Part shown: one piece after another, positions 2,455-53,998 of the stretch | Layout of the letters: the number at the start of each line of letters is the position of its first letter | Numbering within the stretch: position 1 is the stretch's first letter | Program-made: the position numbers and the translations under genes | Assembly (NCBI GenBank): GCA_051955355.1 | Contig: JBQCGU010000072.1 | Span: 170-64,169, forward strand | DNA: 64,000 bases | From: Solirubrobacteraceae bacterium | GTDB lineage: Bacteria > Actinomycetota > Thermoleophilia > Solirubrobacterales > Solirubrobacteraceae | Direction: 5' to 3' | Notes under the pieces: model-generated | Database searches by the model: none | What the model was told of the DNA's origin: nothing | The model's input: the letters and a program-made list of their open reading frames with translations, nothing else

Positions 2455-4311
2455 TCAGCCCGCGCGGTGCAGGAGCGCATGCACGTCGCGCGCCACCTTG
2501 GCGGGCAGCCCGGGCACCGCCTGAAGCTCCTCGCGCGAGGCCGCCAGGATGGCGTCGGGCGAGCCGAAGTGAGCGATCAACGCGCGCTTGCGCGCCGGGC
2601 CGATGCCCGGCAGCTCGTCGAGCACCGAGCGGGTCATCGCGCGGTCGCGGCGTGTGCGGTGGTGGGTGAGGGCGAAGCGGTGAGCCTCGTCGCGGACGCG
2701 TTGCAGCAACTGAAGCTCCGCGGTGGAGTGGTCGAGCAGCAGCGGCGTGCGTCGGCCTGGGACGAACACCTCCTCGATGCGCTTGGCGAGCGACACCACC
2801 GTCACGCCGCGCTCGCGAAAGCCGCGCAGCGGCTCCATGCCTGCGGCGAGCTGGCCCTTGCCGCCGTCGATCACGACGAGGTTGGGCAGCGCAGCGAAGC
2901 TCGGGTCGTGCGAAGGGTCGTGCGGGGAGATGTCGAGCTGGCGCTCCCATTGCGCATAGCGGCGCGAGAGCACCTCCGCCATCGAGGCGTAGTCGTCCGG
3001 GCCTTCGACGCTGCGGATCTTGAAGCGGCGGTAGTCGGATTTCTTGGGCGCGCCGCCCTCAAACACCACCATCGATGCGACCGTGTGGGTGCCACCGAGG
3101 TTGGAGATGTCAAAGCACTCGATCCGCACAGGCACGGTGTCCAAGCCGAGTGCTGCCTGCAGGCCGTCGAGCGCCTGTGCGCGGTGCTGGTGGCGGCGCT
3201 CCTCGCGCAGCCGCTCACTCTGGAGCGCCAGGCGCGCGTTGCGATAGGCGAGCTCGAGGATGCGCTGCTTGTCGCCGCGCTCGGCAGCGTGCAGCCTCAC
3301 AGGGCCGCCGCGCCGTCGTGAGAGTGCCTCGGCGAGCGCCGGACGCTGGGCAAGCTCGCCCTGGACGACGATCAGCGCCGGGATCGACGTCGGTCCGCCG
3401 TAGTACTGGAGCATGAACTCTTCGCCCACCTCGCCTACGTCGCGCTCGGTCTCGTTGGAGAGGTAGAAGGACTGGCGGTCGGAGAGCACGCCGTCGCGCA
3501 CCTGGAACACCTGGGCATTGGCGTCGGTGTCGTGCAGGGCGATAGCCACTGCGTCGAGCGTTCCCACCGACTCGTTGGCAACGCGCTGGCGCTCCATCAG
3601 CGAACGCACGGAGCGCCACCGGTTGCGCTCCAGCGTCGCCTGCTCGAACTCGAGCTCGGCGGCGGCTGCCTCCATGCGCTCCTGCAACTGGTGCTCGATC
3701 GCGCGGAAGCGCCCCGACAGGAAGTCGACGACGCCGTCGATACTGCGCCGGTACTGCTCCTTGGAGACGTAGCCGACGCACGGAGCCTCACAGCGCTTTA
3801 TGTAGTAGTCCAGGCACGGACTGCCGCTGCGCCGTCCCGGCTCGACGCCGGTGCACGAGCGATACATGAACACCTTGGCGAGCACGTCAAGTGTGGAGCG
3901 CACCCGCTTGGCGCTCGAATATGGGCCGAAGTACAGGCGCCCGGCGCGGTGCTTCTCACGGGTGAAGTACACGCGCGGGAAATCCTCGTCCATCGAGATG
4001 CCGACGAACGGATAGGACTTGTCGTCGCGCAGGCGGATGTTGAAGCGCGGGCGGTACTGCTTGATGAAGCTCTGCTCCGCCAGCAGCGCCTCGGCCTCAG
4101 ATGCCACGACGACGCACTCGATGTGATCGGTGGCGGCCACCATCTCGGCGTGCCCCGGGCTGCTCGGCACCTGAGCCTTGGAGAAGTGCGAAGCCACGCG
4201 CTTGCGCACGGACTTGGCCTTGCCTACGTAGATGACCCTTCCGGAGCGATCGCGGAAGAGGTAGACGCCCGGTTGGTCGGGGAGCTGGCGGCGCTGCTCG
4301 GCGAGGCTCAA
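2455..4311 (-). CDS. uvrC: Excinuclease ABC subunit C
   Basis: LPDQPGVYLF..IYVGKAKS (GIY-YIG), RIECFDISN, IDGGKGQL, RVRDEAHRFA, C-terminal HhH. Confidence 0.97.
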   Translation of the reverse strand: MSLAEQRRQLPDQPGVYLFRDRSGRVIYVGKAKSVRKRVASHFSKAQVPSSPGHAEMVAATDHIECVVVASEAEALLAEQSFIKQYRPRFNIRLRDDKSYPFVGISMDEDFPRVYFTREKHRAGRLYFGPYSSAKRVRSTLDVLAKVFMYRSCTGVEPGRRSGSPCLDYYIKRCEAPCVGYVSKEQYRRSIDGVVDFLSGRFRAIEHQLQERMEAAAAELEFEQATLERNRWRSVRSLMERQRVANESVGTLDAVAIALHDTDANAQVFQVRDGVLSDRQSFYLSNETERDVGEVGEEFMLQYYGGPTSIPALIVVQGELAQRPALAEALSRRRGGPVRLHAAERGDKQRILELAYRNARLALQSERLREERRHQHRAQALDGLQAALGLDTVPVRIECFDISNLGGTHTVASMVVFEGGAPKKSDYRRFKIRSVEGPDDYASMAEVLSRRYAQWERQLDISPHDPSHDPSFAALPNLVVIDGGKGQLAAGMEPLRGFRERGVTVVSLAKRIEEVFVPGRRTPLLLDHSTAELQLLQRVRDEAHRFALTHHRTRRDRAMTRSVLDELPGIGPARKRALIAHFGSPDAILAASREELQAVPGLPAKVARDVHALLHRAG

Positions 4312-4330
4312 GAGACGCTGCTCGGGAGGC

Positions 4331-4690
4331 TCAATAAGTGCGCGAGAAGCGGTAGACCACGACCAGCGCCCACACGGCGGCGGCGAGCATCACGAACCAG
4401 AGCAGCTCGCCGAGCCCGGTTTCCCACATGCGCGGCTGCGCGGCCGCGGTGAAGAAGCCGAGCGCGAGTCCGCCATAGAGCAGCGCACGGTGGCGCTGGC
4501 CGAGGCTGTAGAGGCTGAGCCGGCGTTCGCGGTAGGTCCGGTAGCCGAAGTAGCCGAAGCCCGCGCCGAACACCACCCACAGGGCAGCTGCGAACGCTTC
4601 CGCCACCTGCCCTCCCCCGGGCAGGAACTGCACCGCCGCCGCAATGGCGGCAATGATGGCGATGTTGCGTACGGTGCGCCAGTGCTCCAT
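4331..4690 (-). CDS. Small multi-pass membrane protein of unknown function
   Basis: 119 aa with about four hydrophobic segments; TAGAAT 8 nt before ATG; heads the uvrC-rapZ run. Confidence 0.75.
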   Translation of the reverse strand: MEHWRTVRNIAIIAAIAAAVQFLPGGGQVAEAFAAALWVVFGAGFGYFGYRTYRERRLSLYSLGQRHRALLYGGLALGFFTAAAQPRMWETGLGELLWFVMLAAAVWALVVVYRFSRTY

Positions 4691-4782
4691 GACACTCGAT
4701 TCTAGGCCGCGCGGGCCCTTTGAGCCGCCGCACGACGTGTCCGGCGTTTGCGGAAATGTTTACTCGAAAGTCGAGATTTCTT

Positions 4783-4812
4783 TTCACATGAGCAACCATG
4801 ACTCGCTATACT
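4783..4812 (+). promoter_or_regulatory. Sigma70-type promoter TTCACA-N18-TATACT
   Basis: TTCACA at 4783-4788 and TATACT at 4807-4812 in an intergenic gap with no credible + strand CDS downstream. Confidence 0.55.
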
Positions 4813-4816
4813 CGGC

Positions 4817-4915
4817 GTTGCCCGTTCGACTCCTAACGGGGTCGACTGAGGGTTGGTTGGCAGCCGTCGGGGTACTCGTCACTCAGGTCAGAGAGCCCTG
4901 GCGGCTGTTTTATTT
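4817..4915 (+). ncRNA. Candidate ~100-nt small RNA with intrinsic terminator
   Basis: Promoter upstream; 12-bp stem 4861-4872/4896-4907 (two G-U pairs on +) followed by TTTTATTT 4908-4915; alternative 5' hairpins. Confidence 0.5.
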
Positions 4916-4969
4916 AACGAACGCCACCTCCCTCCTCGACGCAGCCCTCGCAAGCACCTCGGCGCCGAC

Positions 4970-6907
4970 TCAATCGACCAGCGCCGTGAGGCGCTCATAC
5001 GCCGCATCTACCGCCCGCTTGGCGGCTGTGTGACGCGCTTCTGACTTGGCAGCCTCGTACTTGGTGGCCCAGGCAGCCGGATCGGCAAGCTCGTCCTCGA
5101 GCGCTTGCAATGCCGCCTCGGCCTCTTCGACCGCCTTCTCCGCCTTGGCTTGCTCGCGCAGGCGGTTCTTGGAAGGCTCGGCGCGCTTGGGCTTGCCGTT
5201 CGATTCCCCGATTGGCGCGGGCGTCGTTTCGGGCAGCGGCTTGGGAGCTGGGGCACGCGTGCCGGCTCCCGCTGGCGCCTGTCCCTCGGCGCGGCGCTCT
5301 TCGCGCACGCGCACGTACTCCGGCCAGCCACCGACGTAGCTGCGCAGCGAGCGGTCCTCGACAGCGATCGTGCGACTGCCAACCGCGTCGAGCAGGGCAC
5401 GGTCGTGGGAAACGAGCAGCAGCGCGCCTTCAAACGAGCAGAGCGCATCCTCGAGCGCCTCGCGGCTCTCCAGGTCGAGATGGTTGGTGGGCTCGTCGAG
5501 GATCAGCACGTTGGCGCCGGAGTGCACCAACACCGCCAGCGACAGGCGCCGGCGCTCGCCTCCGGAGAGCCCGTCGAGCGGCTTGTCGGCATCCTCGCCG
5601 GAGAAGAGGAAGGCGCCGAGCAGCGCGCGCGCCTTGTTCGGAGTCAGACCGGTGGCACGCTGAGCTGCGTCCACGACGCTCTGCCCCGGCGGCCCGCCCC
5701 GCCCGAGCTCCTCGGCGTGCTGGGAGAGGTAGCCGACCTTCACGTTGTGGCCGGTGCTCAGCTTGCCGCCCGCGAGCGAGCGGCGTCCGGCGAGCGTCTC
5801 GATCAGCGTCGTCTTGCCCGTCCCGTTCGGGCCGACGAGCGAGACGTGCTCGCCGCGCTCCAGCCACAGCTCTGCCTGCTCCAGCAGCGTGACCGGCGGA
5901 TCGCCGATCTGCACCAGACCGTCGCTCAGCTCGAAGATCACCCTGCCTGAGCGCTCGGGGGCCTTGAACGAGAACTCCAGCGCCGTACGGTCGCGCGGGT
6001 CGCGCTCGATGCGCTCGATCTTGGAGAGCTTCTTCAGCCGCGACTGCGCCTGGCGGGCCTTGGTGGCCTTGTAGCGAAAGCGCTCGATGAAGCGCTCCAT
6101 GCGCGCGATCTCCGTCTGCTGCTTGTCGATCGCCCGGCCAAGCGCCAGCTCCCGCGCGGCTTGCTCGCGCCGCCAGCTGTGCCAGCTGCCCGCGAAGAAG
6201 CGCGAGCGGCCGGCCTCGATCTCGAGCACCGCGGTGCCGACAGCCTCCAGAAACCAGCGGTCGTGCGCGACGAGCATCACGGCTGCATCCAGTGCTGTGA
6301 GCGTCTGCTCGAGCCACTCCAGCGACTCGATGTCGAGATGGTTGGTGGGCTCGTCGAGCAACAGCACCTCTGCTCCCGTCGCCAGCGCCCGCGCCAGCGA
6401 AGCACGCGTGAGCTGGCCGCCCGAGAACGTGTCGAGGTTGCGCTCCAGGTCGGCCTCCCCAAAGCCCAAGCCGCGCGTCATGATCGTGGCGCGATCGCGC
6501 CACAGGGAGCCGCCGCGCGCCTCCAGGCGGGCTTGCGCGGCGGCGTAGCGGTTCAGCGTGGCCTCGTCGGTGGCGCCCTCCCCCATGCGCCCCTCCAGCT
6601 CAGCCAGCTCGGCCTCGACCGCAAGCTCCTCGGCGCAGCCGGAGAGCACGTAGTCGCGCAGATTCAGCGCCCGCTCGCGCGGCGGGCGCTGGTCGTGAAG
6701 AGCTATGCGCACGCCCTTGGACACGCTCAGCTCTCCCTTCTCGATCGACTCCTCTCCGGCGAGCATGCGCAGCAGCGTGGTCTTGCCCGCGCCGTTGCGC
6801 CCGGCGATGGTCAGCCGTTCGCCGCGCTCGAGCTTGAACGAGACGCCGCTCAGGAGCGGCTTGCCGGCCATGTCTTTGTGCAGATTGGAGGCGATCAGGA
6901 GAGCCAC
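4970..6907 (-). CDS. ABC-F family ATP-binding protein (ribosome-associated, Uup/YheS-like)
   Basis: Two ABC cassettes (GRNGAGKTT/FSGGQ/LLLDEPTNHLD; GPNGTGKTT/LSGGE), linker, C-terminal coiled coil, no TM; GTG start 6 nt after TACCAT. Confidence 0.92.
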   Translation of the reverse strand: MALLIASNLHKDMAGKPLLSGVSFKLERGERLTIAGRNGAGKTTLLRMLAGEESIEKGELSVSKGVRIALHDQRPPRERALNLRDYVLSGCAEELAVEAELAELEGRMGEGATDEATLNRYAAAQARLEARGGSLWRDRATIMTRGLGFGEADLERNLDTFSGGQLTRASLARALATGAEVLLLDEPTNHLDIESLEWLEQTLTALDAAVMLVAHDRWFLEAVGTAVLEIEAGRSRFFAGSWHSWRREQAARELALGRAIDKQQTEIARMERFIERFRYKATKARQAQSRLKKLSKIERIERDPRDRTALEFSFKAPERSGRVIFELSDGLVQIGDPPVTLLEQAELWLERGEHVSLVGPNGTGKTTLIETLAGRRSLAGGKLSTGHNVKVGYLSQHAEELGRGGPPGQSVVDAAQRATGLTPNKARALLGAFLFSGEDADKPLDGLSGGERRRLSLAVLVHSGANVLILDEPTNHLDLESREALEDALCSFEGALLLVSHDRALLDAVGSRTIAVEDRSLRSYVGGWPEYVRVREERRAEGQAPAGAGTRAPAPKPLPETTPAPIGESNGKPKRAEPSKNRLREQAKAEKAVEEAEAALQALEDELADPAAWATKYEAAKSEARHTAAKRAVDAAYERLTALVD

Positions 6908-6946
6908 GCGAGGATGGTAGGCGCTGATGTAGGATTCGCGCAGCCG

Positions 6947-7216
6947 ATGCGCCGCCTTGCCACAAGCCTGTCGATCGCCCTCCTGCTGCTCGCCCTGAGC
7001 GCGCCGGCTGCCCTGGCGTACAACGACGGGCGCGGCTTCTACGGAGCCACCAACGACAAGGTGGTCACCAACGCGGGCTTCATCCTGATCGTCTTCTTCC
7101 CGTTGTTCGCGCTCGTGATGAGCCTGATCCAGTGGCGACTGGACAAGCGCAAAGAGGCGCGCAAAGCCGCACAGAAAGCGCACGCGATCGACGCGCGCTG
7201 GCGCGGCGGCTGGTAG
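6947..7216 (+). CDS. Small exported/membrane protein (signal peptide, one TM, basic tail ending WRGGW)
   Basis: 89 aa MRRLATSLSIALLLLALSAPAALA-YNDGRGFYG...; fills gap between ABC-F and crotonase. Confidence 0.7.
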   Translation: MRRLATSLSIALLLLALSAPAALAYNDGRGFYGATNDKVVTNAGFILIVFFPLFALVMSLIQWRLDKRKEARKAAQKAHAIDARWRGGW

Positions 7217-7249
7217 GCACGAGCGCTCAGGCCAAGAGCGGACGCTGAG

Positions 7250-8035
7250 TTGCCAGACCCGGCCCAGTCGTCCGCCCTGGTCCGCTACGAGCGCCGCGGC
7301 GCAGCCGCGCTGGTGACGATCGACCGCGAGCAGCGGCGCAACGCCGTCGACGGCCCCACGGCGGCGGCGCTGCACGACGCGTTCGAGCGCTTCGAGACCG
7401 AAGAGGACGCGAGCGCGATGGTGCTCACGGGCGCCGGCGAGCTGGCGTTCTGCGCTGGCGCAGACCTGAAGTCGATCGACACGTTCGCCGACCGCCTGCA
7501 AGCACCCGAAGGCCCGATGGGCTTCACCCGCCTGACGGCGTCCAAGCCGACGATCGCCGCCATCTCCGGCTACGCCCTGGCGGGCGGGTTGGAGCTTGCG
7601 CTGTGGTGCGATCTGCGCATAGCCACCGAGAGCGCCACGCTCGGCTTCCCGGAGCGGCGCTGGGGAGTGCCGCTGATCGACGGCGGCACGCAGAGGCTGC
7701 CGCGGGTGGTCGGCCTGGGACGGGCGCTCGACCTGATCCTCACCGGCCGCCTGGTGAGCGCGGCGGAGGCGCTCGCCATGGGGCTGGTGACCGAGGTGGT
7801 GGCGGACGGCGCGCATCTCGATCGGGCGCTCGCGCTGGCGGAGGGCTTGGCGCGCTTTCCCCAGCAGACGATGCTTGCCGACCGGCGTGCGGCGATCCTC
7901 GGGATGGGCATGAGCCTGCGCGACGGCTTGTCGCTGGAGGCACAGGCGGGTCCCGACACATACGCCCAGGCGGTGGCGGGCGCCGGGCGCTTCGTCGCCG
8001 GGGAGGGCCGCGGCGGCGAGGGCGCGGGCGCCTGA
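7250..8035 (+). CDS. Enoyl-CoA hydratase/isomerase (crotonase) family
   Basis: FCAGADL, AISGYALAGGLELALWCDLRIA, FPERRWGVPLIDGG. Confidence 0.93.
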   Translation: MPDPAQSSALVRYERRGAAALVTIDREQRRNAVDGPTAAALHDAFERFETEEDASAMVLTGAGELAFCAGADLKSIDTFADRLQAPEGPMGFTRLTASKPTIAAISGYALAGGLELALWCDLRIATESATLGFPERRWGVPLIDGGTQRLPRVVGLGRALDLILTGRLVSAAEALAMGLVTEVVADGAHLDRALALAEGLARFPQQTMLADRRAAILGMGMSLRDGLSLEAQAGPDTYAQAVAGAGRFVAGEGRGGEGAGA

Positions 8036-53634: not shown

Positions 53635-53998
53635 TAGTGGAGACGGCGGGAATCGAACCCGCGTCCGCGATTGCGTGAAGATGGCTTCTACGAGCGTAGC
53701 CGGCGCTCTGATCTCATCCCCCGCTAGCCTCGCCGGCCGGGTTGCGGGGGACCAGTCTTCTCAGCTTTCCCCGGATCGGCGAAGACGGACCTCACCGGGT
53801 GAGCCTGCTATCTGATCCCGAGGATCCCCGCCGCAGGCGAGCGGGGCTCGAGACCTCATGCCTGGTTTCTAATCAGGCAGCGAGGGCGTACTCGTGAGAG
53901 TCCGCACTTATTGTTTTCCCGGGAGTTTTACGAGGCCACCCGGGACCTCGACTCGCAACCATCCACACGAACCAACCGCGTCGAAGCCTGTCGTCCCC
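53635..53998 (-). ncRNA. ssrA: tmRNA, tag (A)DSHEYALAA
   Basis: 5' GGGGACG pairs with 3' CGUCUCC-A; T arm GGGUUCGAUUCCC; tag frame 53905-53873; CCA not fully encoded. Confidence 0.97.

What the first reader, a model, noticed from the sequence alone, without database searches (positions are those of the whole stretch)
4763..4915. Stand-alone sRNA candidate with promoter, switchable folds and terminator
Seen: TTCACA-N18-TATACT promoter. The ~100-nt transcript ends in a 12-bp stem plus U-tract whose G-U pairs work only on +. The 5' part has two mutually exclusive hairpins (4821-4826/4835-4840 vs 4826-4833/4838-4845). A GACTGAG/CTCAGGTC pairing competes with the terminator. A CTCGA-AAG-TCGAG palindrome lies upstream of the -35. 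No credible + strand gene follows, so this is not a normal riboswitch. Inference: an unannotated trans-acting sRNA transcribed divergently from the uvrC-rapZ-gap run; RapZ is a known sRNA adaptor in enterobacteria.
Basis: partly seen in the sequence, partly recalled or inferred. Interest (0 to 1): 0.65.

Follow-up and report, generated by a model that had tools for sequence, protein, structure and literature searches.

The report
Small RNA antisense to secreted-protein gene leaders
The stretch encodes a real, previously undescribed ~95-nt small RNA of uncultured soil Solirubrobacteraceae. Its most conserved parts are the mirror image of a conserved leader in front of a family of secreted-protein genes, so it most likely controls those genes by RNA-RNA pairing.

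Summary
A TTCACA-N18-TATACT promoter (4783-4812) precedes a two-domain RNA (about 4820-4912, + strand) that ends in a long hairpin plus U-tract.

- **Distribution:** A covariance model finds full-length copies in 44 of 121 same-genus genomes, up to 6 per genome. It finds none in 73 other genera of the order, and there is no Rfam match.
- **Structure:** 95% of cells pair and 19 of 30 pairs show compensatory changes. In the 15 syntenic orthologues there are 69 G·U and 0 A·C cells, so the + strand is the RNA.
- **Promoter:** Every copy has a -10 box at the same distance.
The "switchable" alternative pairings and the upstream palindrome are peculiar to this genome. The RapZ link has no support.
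- **New finding:** The apical hairpin (ACUCGUC…AGGUCAGAGAGC) and the linker (CUGAGGGUUGGUUG) are the reverse complement of a conserved ~125-nt 5' leader. This leader precedes a family of ~200-aa secreted, Cys-rich proteins of unknown fold, the first genes of low-GC surface-protein operons.
- **Support for pairing:** Predicted sRNA-leader duplexes reach -38 to -52 kcal/mol; none of 400 random genome segments is as low as any of these. sRNA, leader and protein family co-occur.
- **Likely origin:** In some relatives the sRNA gene sits right beside such an operon.

Best reading: a trans-acting antisense sRNA. No expression data could be obtained.

The parts
4783..4812 (+). Promoter: -35 TTCACA (4783-4788), 18-nt spacer, -10 TATACT (4807-4812)
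   Evidence: Consensus scan, 10/12 match, 1 found against 0.0 in shuffles. The 14 syntenic orthologues have CGCTATACT (TATAAT, TATGCT or TACACT in one each), and most show TTCACC 18 nt upstream. Every paralogue has a TAnnnT box ending 0-3 nt before model position 1.
4820..4853 (+). 5' domain: P1 (4820-4823 with 4850-4853, closed by G·U) enclosing hairpin P1a (4826-4833 with 4838-4845). The transcript probably starts at G4817-G4820.
   Evidence: MFE fold. All 5 P1 pairs and 5 of 7 P1a pairs show compensatory changes among 32 homologues.
4846..4859 (+). Linker block CUGAGGGUUGGUUG, partly unpaired. It is the reverse complement of CAACCAAGCCUCAG, which lies just upstream of the Shine-Dalgarno sequence in the secreted-protein leaders (13 of 14 against the C90 leaders).
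   Evidence: GAGGGTTGGTTGG is invariant in the six sequences aligned, and GGGTTGG is kept in most paralogues. Duplex energy of the linker alone is not above background.
4859..4909 (+). P2 long hairpin: 15-bp stem, 1x1 A/A internal loop, invariant CUC/GAG 3-bp cap and a 13-nt loop GUCACUCAGGUCA (4878-4890). Blocks ACUCGUC (4874-4880) and AGGUCAGAGAGC (4885-4896) are antisense to the leader hairpin.
   Evidence: 9 of 15 stem pairs have compensatory changes and the cap never varies. There are 69 G·U and 0 A·C cells in the 15 group-A RNAs. Duplex energies with leaders of the window genome are -45.4, -44.0, -36.3 and -35.2 kcal/mol, against a background mean of -26.1, sd 3.2, minimum -39.
4908..4915 (+). 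U-tract TTTTATTT completing an intrinsic terminator that works on the + strand only
   Evidence: Sequence. Group-A orthologues keep CTGT(T/C)TTT. On the - strand the hairpin is followed by CCAACCAACCC, with no U-tract.
4763..4775 (.). CTCGA-AAG-TCGAG palindrome upstream of the -35. Probably not part of the element.
   Evidence: Present here but absent from all orthologous loci.
4331..4690 (-). Neighbour, not part of the RNA: a 119-aa membrane-protein ORF without family match. It is probably leaderless (TAGAAT 8 nt before the ATG) and is followed by uvrC, rapZ and gap.
   Evidence: ORF list and Pfam/NCBIfam scans. The same ORF flanks the RNA in the syntenic orthologues.
4970..7816 (-). Neighbour: convergent ABC-F ATPase gene whose stop codon lies 55 nt beyond the RNA's 3' end
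   Evidence: Pfam ABC_tran x2 plus ABC_tran_Xtn. Synteny is kept in orthologues.

Best explanation
Window 4820-4912 (+) encodes a ~95-nt non-coding RNA. It is transcribed from its own housekeeping-type promoter and ended by an intrinsic terminator. It belongs to a family confined to one genus of uncultured soil Solirubrobacteraceae.

The family is homologous, in reverse orientation, to the conserved 5' leader of a multigene family. These genes encode ~200-aa secreted, Cys-rich, all-beta proteins and open low-GC operons that also encode very large secreted proteins and a collagen-repeat protein.

Proposed mechanism (inferred, not shown):
1. The sRNA acts in trans as an antisense regulator of these leaders.
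2. Its apical loop (…AGGUCA…) first kisses the complementary loop (…UGACCU…) of the leader hairpin.
3. Pairing then spreads over ACUCGUC/GACGAGU and AGGUCAGAGAGC/GCUCUCUGACCU.
4. The linker GAGGGUUGGUUG can pair with the CCUC-containing box just upstream of the Shine-Dalgarno sequence.
5. This changes translation and/or stability of the operon mRNAs. The direction of the effect is unknown.

The sRNA gene probably arose by inverted duplication of a leader. In some relatives it still lies beside such an operon. In this genome it is an unlinked copy between ABC-F and the uvrC-rapZ-gap run.
For: **A real RNA gene**
- Promoter. The -10 box is conserved in all 32 copies at a fixed distance.
- Fold z-score is -4.8.
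- The model finds it in 44 of 121 genus genomes, always full length.
- 95.1% of cells pair and 19 of 30 pairs are compensatory, with 0 of 500 shuffles as good. Slid controls pair 35-49%.
- G·U against A·C is 69:0 in group A and 50:16 in the other copies.

**Antisense homology to leaders**
- The model hits the reverse strand of leaders (39.1 bits at E 1e-5, down to 25.9 bits at E 1.7e-4).
- In the leader hairpin, G·U pairs valid only on the gene strand outnumber A·C 29 to 7.
- A TTGACA-17-TAnnnT promoter lies 56-60 nt upstream of the leader core in 4 leaders.

**Complementarity**
- Window sRNA apical part against leaders of its own genome: -45.4, -44.0, -36.3 and -35.2 kcal/mol, with 0, 0, 2 and 3 of 400 random segments as low.
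- Unlinked pairs in G087, G033, G091, G017 and G032: -38 to -52.5 kcal/mol, with 0 of 400 as low. Paralogous genes lacking the leader core score at background.
- Cofold favours the heterodimer by 6.5-8.8 kcal/mol.

**Co-occurrence**
- The protein family is in 14 of 81 genomes, and 13 of these are RNA-positive (Fisher p 6e-6).
- The leader core GCGCTCTCTGACC is in 11 of 15 group-A genomes against 20 of 106 others (p 4e-5). For two or more copies it is 9 of 15 against 3 of 106 (p 8e-8).

**Origin and co-variation**
- In G004, G023 and L052 the sRNA gene abuts a leader-bearing gene.
- In G023 the two are identical in antisense over 22 nt.
- sRNAs with CGGAG (G004, G072, G096) sit beside leaders with CUCCG or GUCCG, and the G023 sRNA with CAGAG beside a leader with CUCUG.
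Against:
- The centre of the loop is not complementary in the unlinked group-A pairs. The sRNA has AUUC or ACUC where the leader has 2-4 unrelated bases, so pairing is 12 + 7 bp with an internal loop.
- The linker block alone is not better than background (z -1.4).
- Co-occurrence and shared sequence variants are confounded by phylogeny and, for adjacent copies, by gene conversion.
- 4 of 15 group-A genomes show no exact leader core. These are incomplete MAGs or carry diverged leaders.
- Predicted Shine-Dalgarno accessibility changes inconsistently: 0.50 to 0.46, 0.45 to 0.55 and 0.42 to 0.79. The sign of regulation cannot be inferred.
- The G023-type copies have few strand-informative pairs (2-4 G·U against 1-2 A·C), so their transcribed strand is less certain.
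Confidence: 0.6

Rival explanations
1. It is a genuine stand-alone sRNA, but its similarity to the leaders is only a relic of its origin. It acts on other targets through its loop, or it binds a protein.
For: A 14-nt perfect complement to the loop centre (CGUCACUCAGGUCA) lies directly at the ribosome-binding site of a putative lipoprotein gene on contig C15. The CUC/GAG cap and loop are invariant, as expected for a recognition surface of any kind.
Against: One 14-mer hit is about what chance gives (my estimate is about 0.2 expected). The blocks kept identical between unlinked sRNAs and leaders are the most conserved part of both RNAs. Duplex energies with leaders are far beyond background in six genomes. 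A protein would not normally recognise both a hairpin and its reverse complement.
Confidence: 0.2
2. The element works mainly in cis at its own locus. Convergent transcription, or the strong hairpin, blocks read-through from ABC-F into the 119-aa ORF, uvrC and rapZ. The RNA product itself does nothing.
For: It lies 55 nt after the ABC-F stop codon and upstream of the next - strand genes. The hairpin also folds on the - strand (-34.6 kcal/mol). In the other orthologues the stem is fully Watson-Crick on both strands.
Against: The - strand has no U-tract. In the window the stem has two G·U pairs that become A·C on the - strand, and P1 and the stem base add more (69:0). Paralogues keep the same RNA in unrelated contexts. 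The 5' domain and promoter would then be unnecessary, yet they are conserved.
Confidence: 0.08
3. It is a non-functional remnant or a dispersed repeat: a decayed inverted copy of a leader, or a MITE-like element that happens to carry promoter-like and terminator-like sequences.
For: The sequence is multi-copy, occurs in both orientations and is associated with low-GC islands.
Against: The 14 syntenic orthologues are about 81-83% identical to the window over the RNA (measured for five), while the flanks do not align. Compensatory substitutions keep the helices. There are no terminal repeats or target duplications. The short copies sit at a fixed distance from homologous start codons, so they were duplicated with their genes.
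Confidence: 0.05
4. It is a RapZ-dependent GlmZ/GlmY-like sRNA.
For: Only proximity: a rapZ-like gene lies 2.3 kb away.
Against: No Rfam match even at E <= 10. The uvrC-rapZ linkage is a general actinobacterial and firmicute feature. Other family members are not near rapZ. Most same-genus genomes lack the RNA (77 of 121).
Confidence: 0.02

Closest known systems
Trans-encoded base-pairing sRNAs that start with loop-loop kissing at two sites (OxyS-fhlA in E. coli), and anti-antisense activators such as DsrA/RprA-rpoS. This comparison is from my own knowledge.
   Same: It is a stand-alone ~100-nt RNA with its own promoter and intrinsic terminator. It has two separate blocks complementary to one mRNA leader, one of them hairpin loop against hairpin loop and one close to the ribosome-binding site. 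One sRNA is predicted to serve several mRNAs.
   Different: There is no sequence or Rfam relationship. The lineage is actinobacterial, where Hfq is generally absent (from my own knowledge, not tested here). Complementarity is much longer (12 + 7 + ~13 nt) because the sRNA is a reversed homologue of the leader itself. The targets are paralogous genes sharing one leader.
Cis-antisense control RNAs that pair hairpin to hairpin (CopA/CopT of plasmid R1, RNA I/RNA II of ColE1, Sok/hok and other type I antitoxins). This comparison is from my own knowledge.
   Same: A hairpin in the regulator is the exact mirror of a hairpin in the target leader, so a 6-7-nt loop-loop kiss can nucleate an extended duplex.
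   Different: In this window the RNA gene does not overlap its presumed targets and lies on other contigs. No toxin-like small ORF or replicon is involved. In relatives the gene is adjacent and divergent, not overlapping.
Sibling, multicopy sRNA families (Qrr1-5, LhrC1-5, PrrF1/2, OmrA/B). This comparison is from my own knowledge.
   Same: There are several paralogous copies per genome, sometimes in tandem or close pairs, sharing an invariant recognition motif while the stems co-vary.
   Different: The distribution is limited to one genus of uncultured Solirubrobacteraceae. Part of the apparent 'copies' are really the target leaders on the other strand.
Plant microRNA genes born by inverted duplication of their target genes (model of Allen et al. 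2004, from my own knowledge)
   Same: Regulator and target share ancestry in opposite orientation. Putative intermediates, with the regulator next to the target, coexist with unlinked trans copies.
   Different: It is bacterial, has no Dicer-type processing, and the homology is to the 5' leader rather than the coding sequence.

Membership tests
Any described RNA family (Rfam 15) | Match to a curated covariance model | tested here: not met
   The window has only tmRNA at 53635-53998. Region 4600-5050 gives no match even at E <= 10. The leader region has only noise hits far below their gathering scores.
Bacterial stand-alone trans-acting sRNA | Own promoter and own terminator, with no co-directional downstream gene | tested here: met
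   Promoter. The -10 box is conserved in 32 copies. Hairpin plus U-tract is seen in the window and its 14 orthologues. The downstream gene is convergent.
Bacterial stand-alone trans-acting sRNA | Conserved secondary structure supported by covariation on one strand | tested here: met
   95.1% of cells pair and 19 of 30 pairs are compensatory, with 0 of 500 shuffles as good. G·U against A·C is 69:0.
Bacterial stand-alone trans-acting sRNA | Non-coding | tested here: met
   There is no AUG or GUG in the RNA. The only ORF (TTG, 4853-5044) runs through the terminator, and its frame is broken by 1-nt indels in the loop among homologues.
Bacterial stand-alone trans-acting sRNA | Detectable discrete transcript | not testable with these tools
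There are no cultured representatives.
Bacterial stand-alone trans-acting sRNA | Conserved complementarity to mRNA targets near the translation start | tested here: met
   Leaders of the secreted-protein family give duplexes of -35 to -52 kcal/mol, far beyond background, in 6 genomes. This is computational evidence only.
GlmY/GlmZ-RapZ circuit | GlmZ/GlmY-type RNA structure | tested here: not met
   No Rfam GlmY or GlmZ hit.
GlmY/GlmZ-RapZ circuit | Consistent genomic or functional link to rapZ | tested here: not met
   Paralogues lie beside DegT/LeuA and secreted-protein operons.
Riboswitch / cis-regulatory 5' leader | Regulated gene downstream on the same strand | tested here: not met
   None in the window or in the 14 syntenic loci.
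Intrinsic terminator of the convergent ABC-F gene | Hairpin followed by a U-tract on the - strand | tested here: not met
   The - strand hairpin is followed by CCAACCAACCC. It has A·C mismatches in the window and a weaker fold.
Cis-antisense RNA (plasmid copy control, type I toxin-antitoxin) | Overlap with the target gene on the opposite strand | tested here: not met
   No leader-bearing gene lies near 4763-4915. The predicted targets are on contigs C90, C17, C39 and C93.

The most novel reading that the evidence does not exclude
This is a bacterial sRNA family that arose by inverted duplication of its own target's 5' leader. Several stages are still visible in one genus:
- leader only;
- leader plus an adjacent, divergently transcribed mirror copy that has gained a promoter;
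- an unlinked trans copy, as in this window.

Together these form a dedicated hairpin-against-hairpin control circuit for an island of surface and secreted-protein operons of unknown function.
Probability: 0.5. Interest if true: 0.7.

Novelty: new member of a known kind. Interest (0 to 1): 0.58.

Why it matters
- Almost nothing is known about RNA regulation in Thermoleophilia/Solirubrobacterales, which are abundant but largely uncultured soil actinobacteria. My only search, for 'Solirubrobacterales' together with 'small RNA', returned one unrelated paper.
- The work gives a well-supported new RNA family and a concrete predicted regulon: a conserved leader on a multigene family of secreted proteins with no known fold or domain.
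- It also gives an unusually legible picture of how a trans-acting sRNA can be born from the leader it regulates.
- The predicted pairing blocks are short and exact, so the hypothesis can be tested directly in vitro or with reporter fusions without culturing the organism.

Tried and rejected
- **Rfam:** gathering and permissive scans found nothing.
counted on 32 homologues and rejected at 34% and 54% paired.
- **Upstream palindrome:** not conserved.
- **Coding potential:** rejected because of loop indels and the lack of an AUG or GUG.
- **Riboswitch, ABC-F terminator, RapZ partner:** rejected on the evidence given in the membership rows.
- **SRP-RNA-like loop (CAGGUCAG):** considered from memory and dropped without a dedicated search. 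The RNA is multicopy, is missing from two thirds of the genus, and did not hit the SRP models.
- **Naive 10-11-mer antisense scan of the whole genome:** dominated by GC-rich stem matches and not informative by itself. It did lead to the leaders.
- **Linker-only duplex energies:** not significant.
- **Pattern scan of 185,579 species genomes:** Only Solirubrobacterales and Solirubrobacteraceae MAGs matched.
- **Secreted protein family:** no Pfam or NCBIfam match. An AlphaFold model (pLDDT 78, all-beta) has no PDB neighbour at E <= 0.001.
- **Shine-Dalgarno accessibility with and without the sRNA:** gave no consistent direction.

Full report
**Setting.** The window is contig C72 of a 2.6-Mb, 68% G+C MAG. 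This fits: every true homologue of the element in named genomes is a Solirubrobacterales or Solirubrobacteraceae MAG. The finding lies in the 279-nt spacer between two minus-strand genes. One is an ABC-F ATPase gene (4970-7816). The other is a 119-aa membrane ORF (4331-4690), which is followed by uvrC, a rapZ-like gene and gap.

**The observation.** The only sigma-70-like promoter in 4300-5300 is TTCACA-N18-TATACT at 4783-4812 on the + strand, against 0.0 expected in shuffles. Downstream, the + strand folds into two domains:
- P1 (4820-4823 with 4850-4853) encloses P1a (4826-4833 with 4838-4845).
- P2 is a 15-bp stem (4859-4873 with 4895-4909), with a 3-bp CUC/GAG cap and a 13-nt loop.
- P2 is followed by TTTTATTT.

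The fold energy is -50.4 kcal/mol (z -4.8). The minus strand folds at -34.6 kcal/mol (z -2.9). No + strand gene follows.

**Conservation and structure.** BLAST finds 81-83% identical matches in five same-genus genomes. Each match runs from the -10 box to the U-tract, while the flanks do not align.

A covariance model built from these six sequences finds full-length matches in 44 of 121 genomes of the genus, with up to six per genome. A second model, built from 32 copies, finds nothing in the 73 other genera sampled from the order. Rfam has no match even at E <= 10.

On the 32-sequence alignment:
- 95.1% of cells form standard pairs, and 19 of 30 pairs show changes on both sides.
- No shuffle out of 500 reaches these values, and slid controls pair only 35-49%.
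- The 15 syntenic 'group A' RNAs (the window plus 14 orthologues lying between the same membrane ORF and ABC-F) contain 69 G·U and 0 A·C cells. The remaining copies contain 50 and 16. The + strand is therefore the RNA.
Group A mostly keeps TTCAC(C/A)-N18-TATACT.

One-nucleotide indels in the loop, and the absence of AUG or GUG, exclude a coding function.

**What did not hold.**
- The alternative 5' hairpin (4821-4826/4835-4840) pairs 6/6 only in this genome and 34% overall.
- The GACTGAG/CTCAGGTC pairing reaches 54% overall.
- The CTCGAAAGTCGAG palindrome is absent from the orthologues.
- Nothing links the RNA to RapZ. Other family members sit next to a DegT aminotransferase and LeuA, or next to secreted-protein genes.

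**The unexpected part.** Weak model hits and a motif scan of the window's own genome revealed 'short copies'. These keep GAGG(N)UUGG and the apical ..CUCGUC….AGGUCAGAGAG... Each short copy begins a few bases from the Shine-Dalgarno sequence and start codon of a gene on the opposite strand.

These genes encode a family of 195-245-aa proteins:
- They have a signal peptide, (E/Q)WL, GTVGPG and NLPW motifs and conserved cysteines. The window genome has about ten hits.
- They have no Pfam or NCBIfam match.
- An AlphaFold model (pLDDT 78) is all-beta and has no PDB neighbour.
- On contig C90 such a gene opens a low-GC operon that also encodes 779-aa and 1015-aa secreted proteins and a collagen-repeat protein. 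A second copy of the leader and gene follows.

Aligning the regions upstream of these genes shows a conserved ~125-nt leader on the gene strand. In order, it contains:
1. A hairpin, GGGCYGG..GCG-CUC-UCUGACCUAnGAC-GAG-UGC..CYGGCC.
2. Two AAGCCUCGG boxes.
3. The sequence AACCAAGCCUCGG.CGAGGGAAAGG, and then the ATG.

In four leaders a TTGACA-17-TAnnnT promoter lies 56-60 nt upstream of the core. In the leader hairpin, G·U pairs that work only on the gene strand outnumber A·C 29 to 7. The 'short copies' are therefore mRNA leaders, and the sRNA is their mirror image:
- ACUCGUC (4874-4880) and AGGUCAGAGAGC (4885-4896) are exact complements of the leader's GACGAGU and GCUCUCUGACCU.
- CUGAGGGUUGGUUG (4846-4859) matches CAACCAAGCCUCAG at 13 of 14 positions.

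**Tests of the pairing idea.**
- *Duplex energy, own genome.* The apical 30 nt of the window sRNA give -45.4, -44.0, -36.3 and -35.2 kcal/mol with four leaders of its own genome. The background of 400 random genome segments has mean -26.1, sd 3.2 and minimum -39.0.
- *Duplex energy, other genomes.* In five other genomes, where sRNA and leaders are hundreds of kilobases apart, the values are -38 to -52.5 kcal/mol, and none of 400 random segments is as low. Paralogous genes that lack the leader core score at background.
- *Cofolding.* The heterodimer is favoured by 6.5-8.8 kcal/mol.
- *Co-occurrence.* The protein family is detected in 14 of 81 genomes, 13 of them RNA-positive (p 6e-6). The leader core GCGCTCTCTGACC occurs 65 times in 31 of 121 genomes, against 10 for the reversed control. 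It is present in 11 of 15 group-A genomes against 20 of 106 others (p 4e-5). Nine of the twelve genomes with two or more copies are group-A genomes (p 8e-8). These tests are not corrected for phylogeny.
- *Clustering.* Leaders cluster in 23-70-kb islands in G062, G092, G113 and G033.
- *Adjacency in relatives.* In G004, G023 and the MAG behind L052, the sRNA gene lies next to a leader-bearing gene and diverges from it. In G023 the two are complementary over 22 nt.
- *Shared variants.* sRNAs with CGGAG (G004, G072, G096) sit beside leaders with CUCCG or GUCCG, and the G023 sRNA with CAGAG beside a leader with CUCUG.

**Interpretation.** Shown:
- a conserved, structured, strand-specific RNA gene with promoter and terminator;
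- its reverse-orientation homology and strong complementarity to a conserved leader of a secreted-protein gene family;
- their co-occurrence.

Inferred: the RNA is made and binds those leaders. Binding would begin with an AGGUCA/UGACCU loop-loop kiss and extend from there. Pairing of the linker with the CCUC box near the Shine-Dalgarno sequence would then alter translation or stability.

The consensus leader fold pairs the first CCUCG box with the CGAGG of the ribosome-binding region. Activation by an anti-antisense route is therefore conceivable, but computed Shine-Dalgarno accessibility gives no consistent direction.

The arrangement in relatives suggests that the sRNA arose by inverted duplication of a leader that gained a promoter. 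The window's copy would then be a relocated trans-acting descendant.

**Limits.**
- The loop centre is not complementary in the unlinked pairs.
- The G023-type copies have few strand-informative pairs.
- Gene conversion could explain shared variants in adjacent copies.

I put about 0.9 on 'real sRNA gene family' and about 0.6 on the antisense-to-leader mechanism.

Noticed in passing
Window genome contig C90:1465-9940 (loci L168, L182). Related genes on C17, C39, C93, C95, C76 and C34.: This is a low-GC (55-62%) operon type. A conserved leader is followed by a ~195-aa secreted Cys-rich all-beta protein with (E/Q)WL and NLPW motifs and no Pfam, NCBIfam or PDB neighbour. Next come 779-aa and 1015-aa secreted proteins and a collagen-repeat protein. 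The family gives about 10 hits in this genome and clusters in 23-70-kb islands in relatives.
   Followed up: partly
Window genome contig C15, minus strand, about 68452-68465: A 14-nt perfect complement to the sRNA loop centre (UGACCUGAGUGACG) lies directly upstream of GGGGG-GTG, the start of a putative lipoprotein (..LVTSAVAC lipobox). It is a possible extra target, but compatible with chance.
   Followed up: partly
L010 1430-1475, and the same place in L012, L028, L029, L030 and L037 (G023, G139, G094, G003): A perfect 12-bp palindrome, CCCCAGATGCGC-cgaa-GCGCATCTGGGG, abuts the -10 box of the sRNA copy. It may be an operator or an upstream terminator. About 55 nt downstream of the same copies, TTGACA-N16-TAAGAC lies on the opposite strand and looks like the decayed promoter of a former leader.
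   Followed up: partly
L058 4100-5418 (MAG MFD01138.bin.1.16), and similar pairs in G002, G139 and L084: Two sRNA copies are transcribed divergently, 1.3-2 kb apart. The DNA between them has reduced G+C and no convincing ORF.
   Followed up: no
window 4691-4712: The 119-aa membrane ORF appears to be leaderless: TAGAAT lies 8 nt before its ATG. Further upstream, a CCGGCGTTTGCGG motif in the window corresponds, in inverted orientation, to CCGCAAnnnCCGG in the orthologous loci. It could be an operator between the divergent promoters.
   Followed up: no
window 53635-53998 (-): A tmRNA gene, the only Rfam match in the window (184.8 bits).
   Followed up: no
window 4970-7816 (-): The ABC-F ORF reads 948 aa from the first ATG, but the ABC domains start near residue 320. 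The true start is probably internal, or there is a long N-terminal extension.
   Followed up: no
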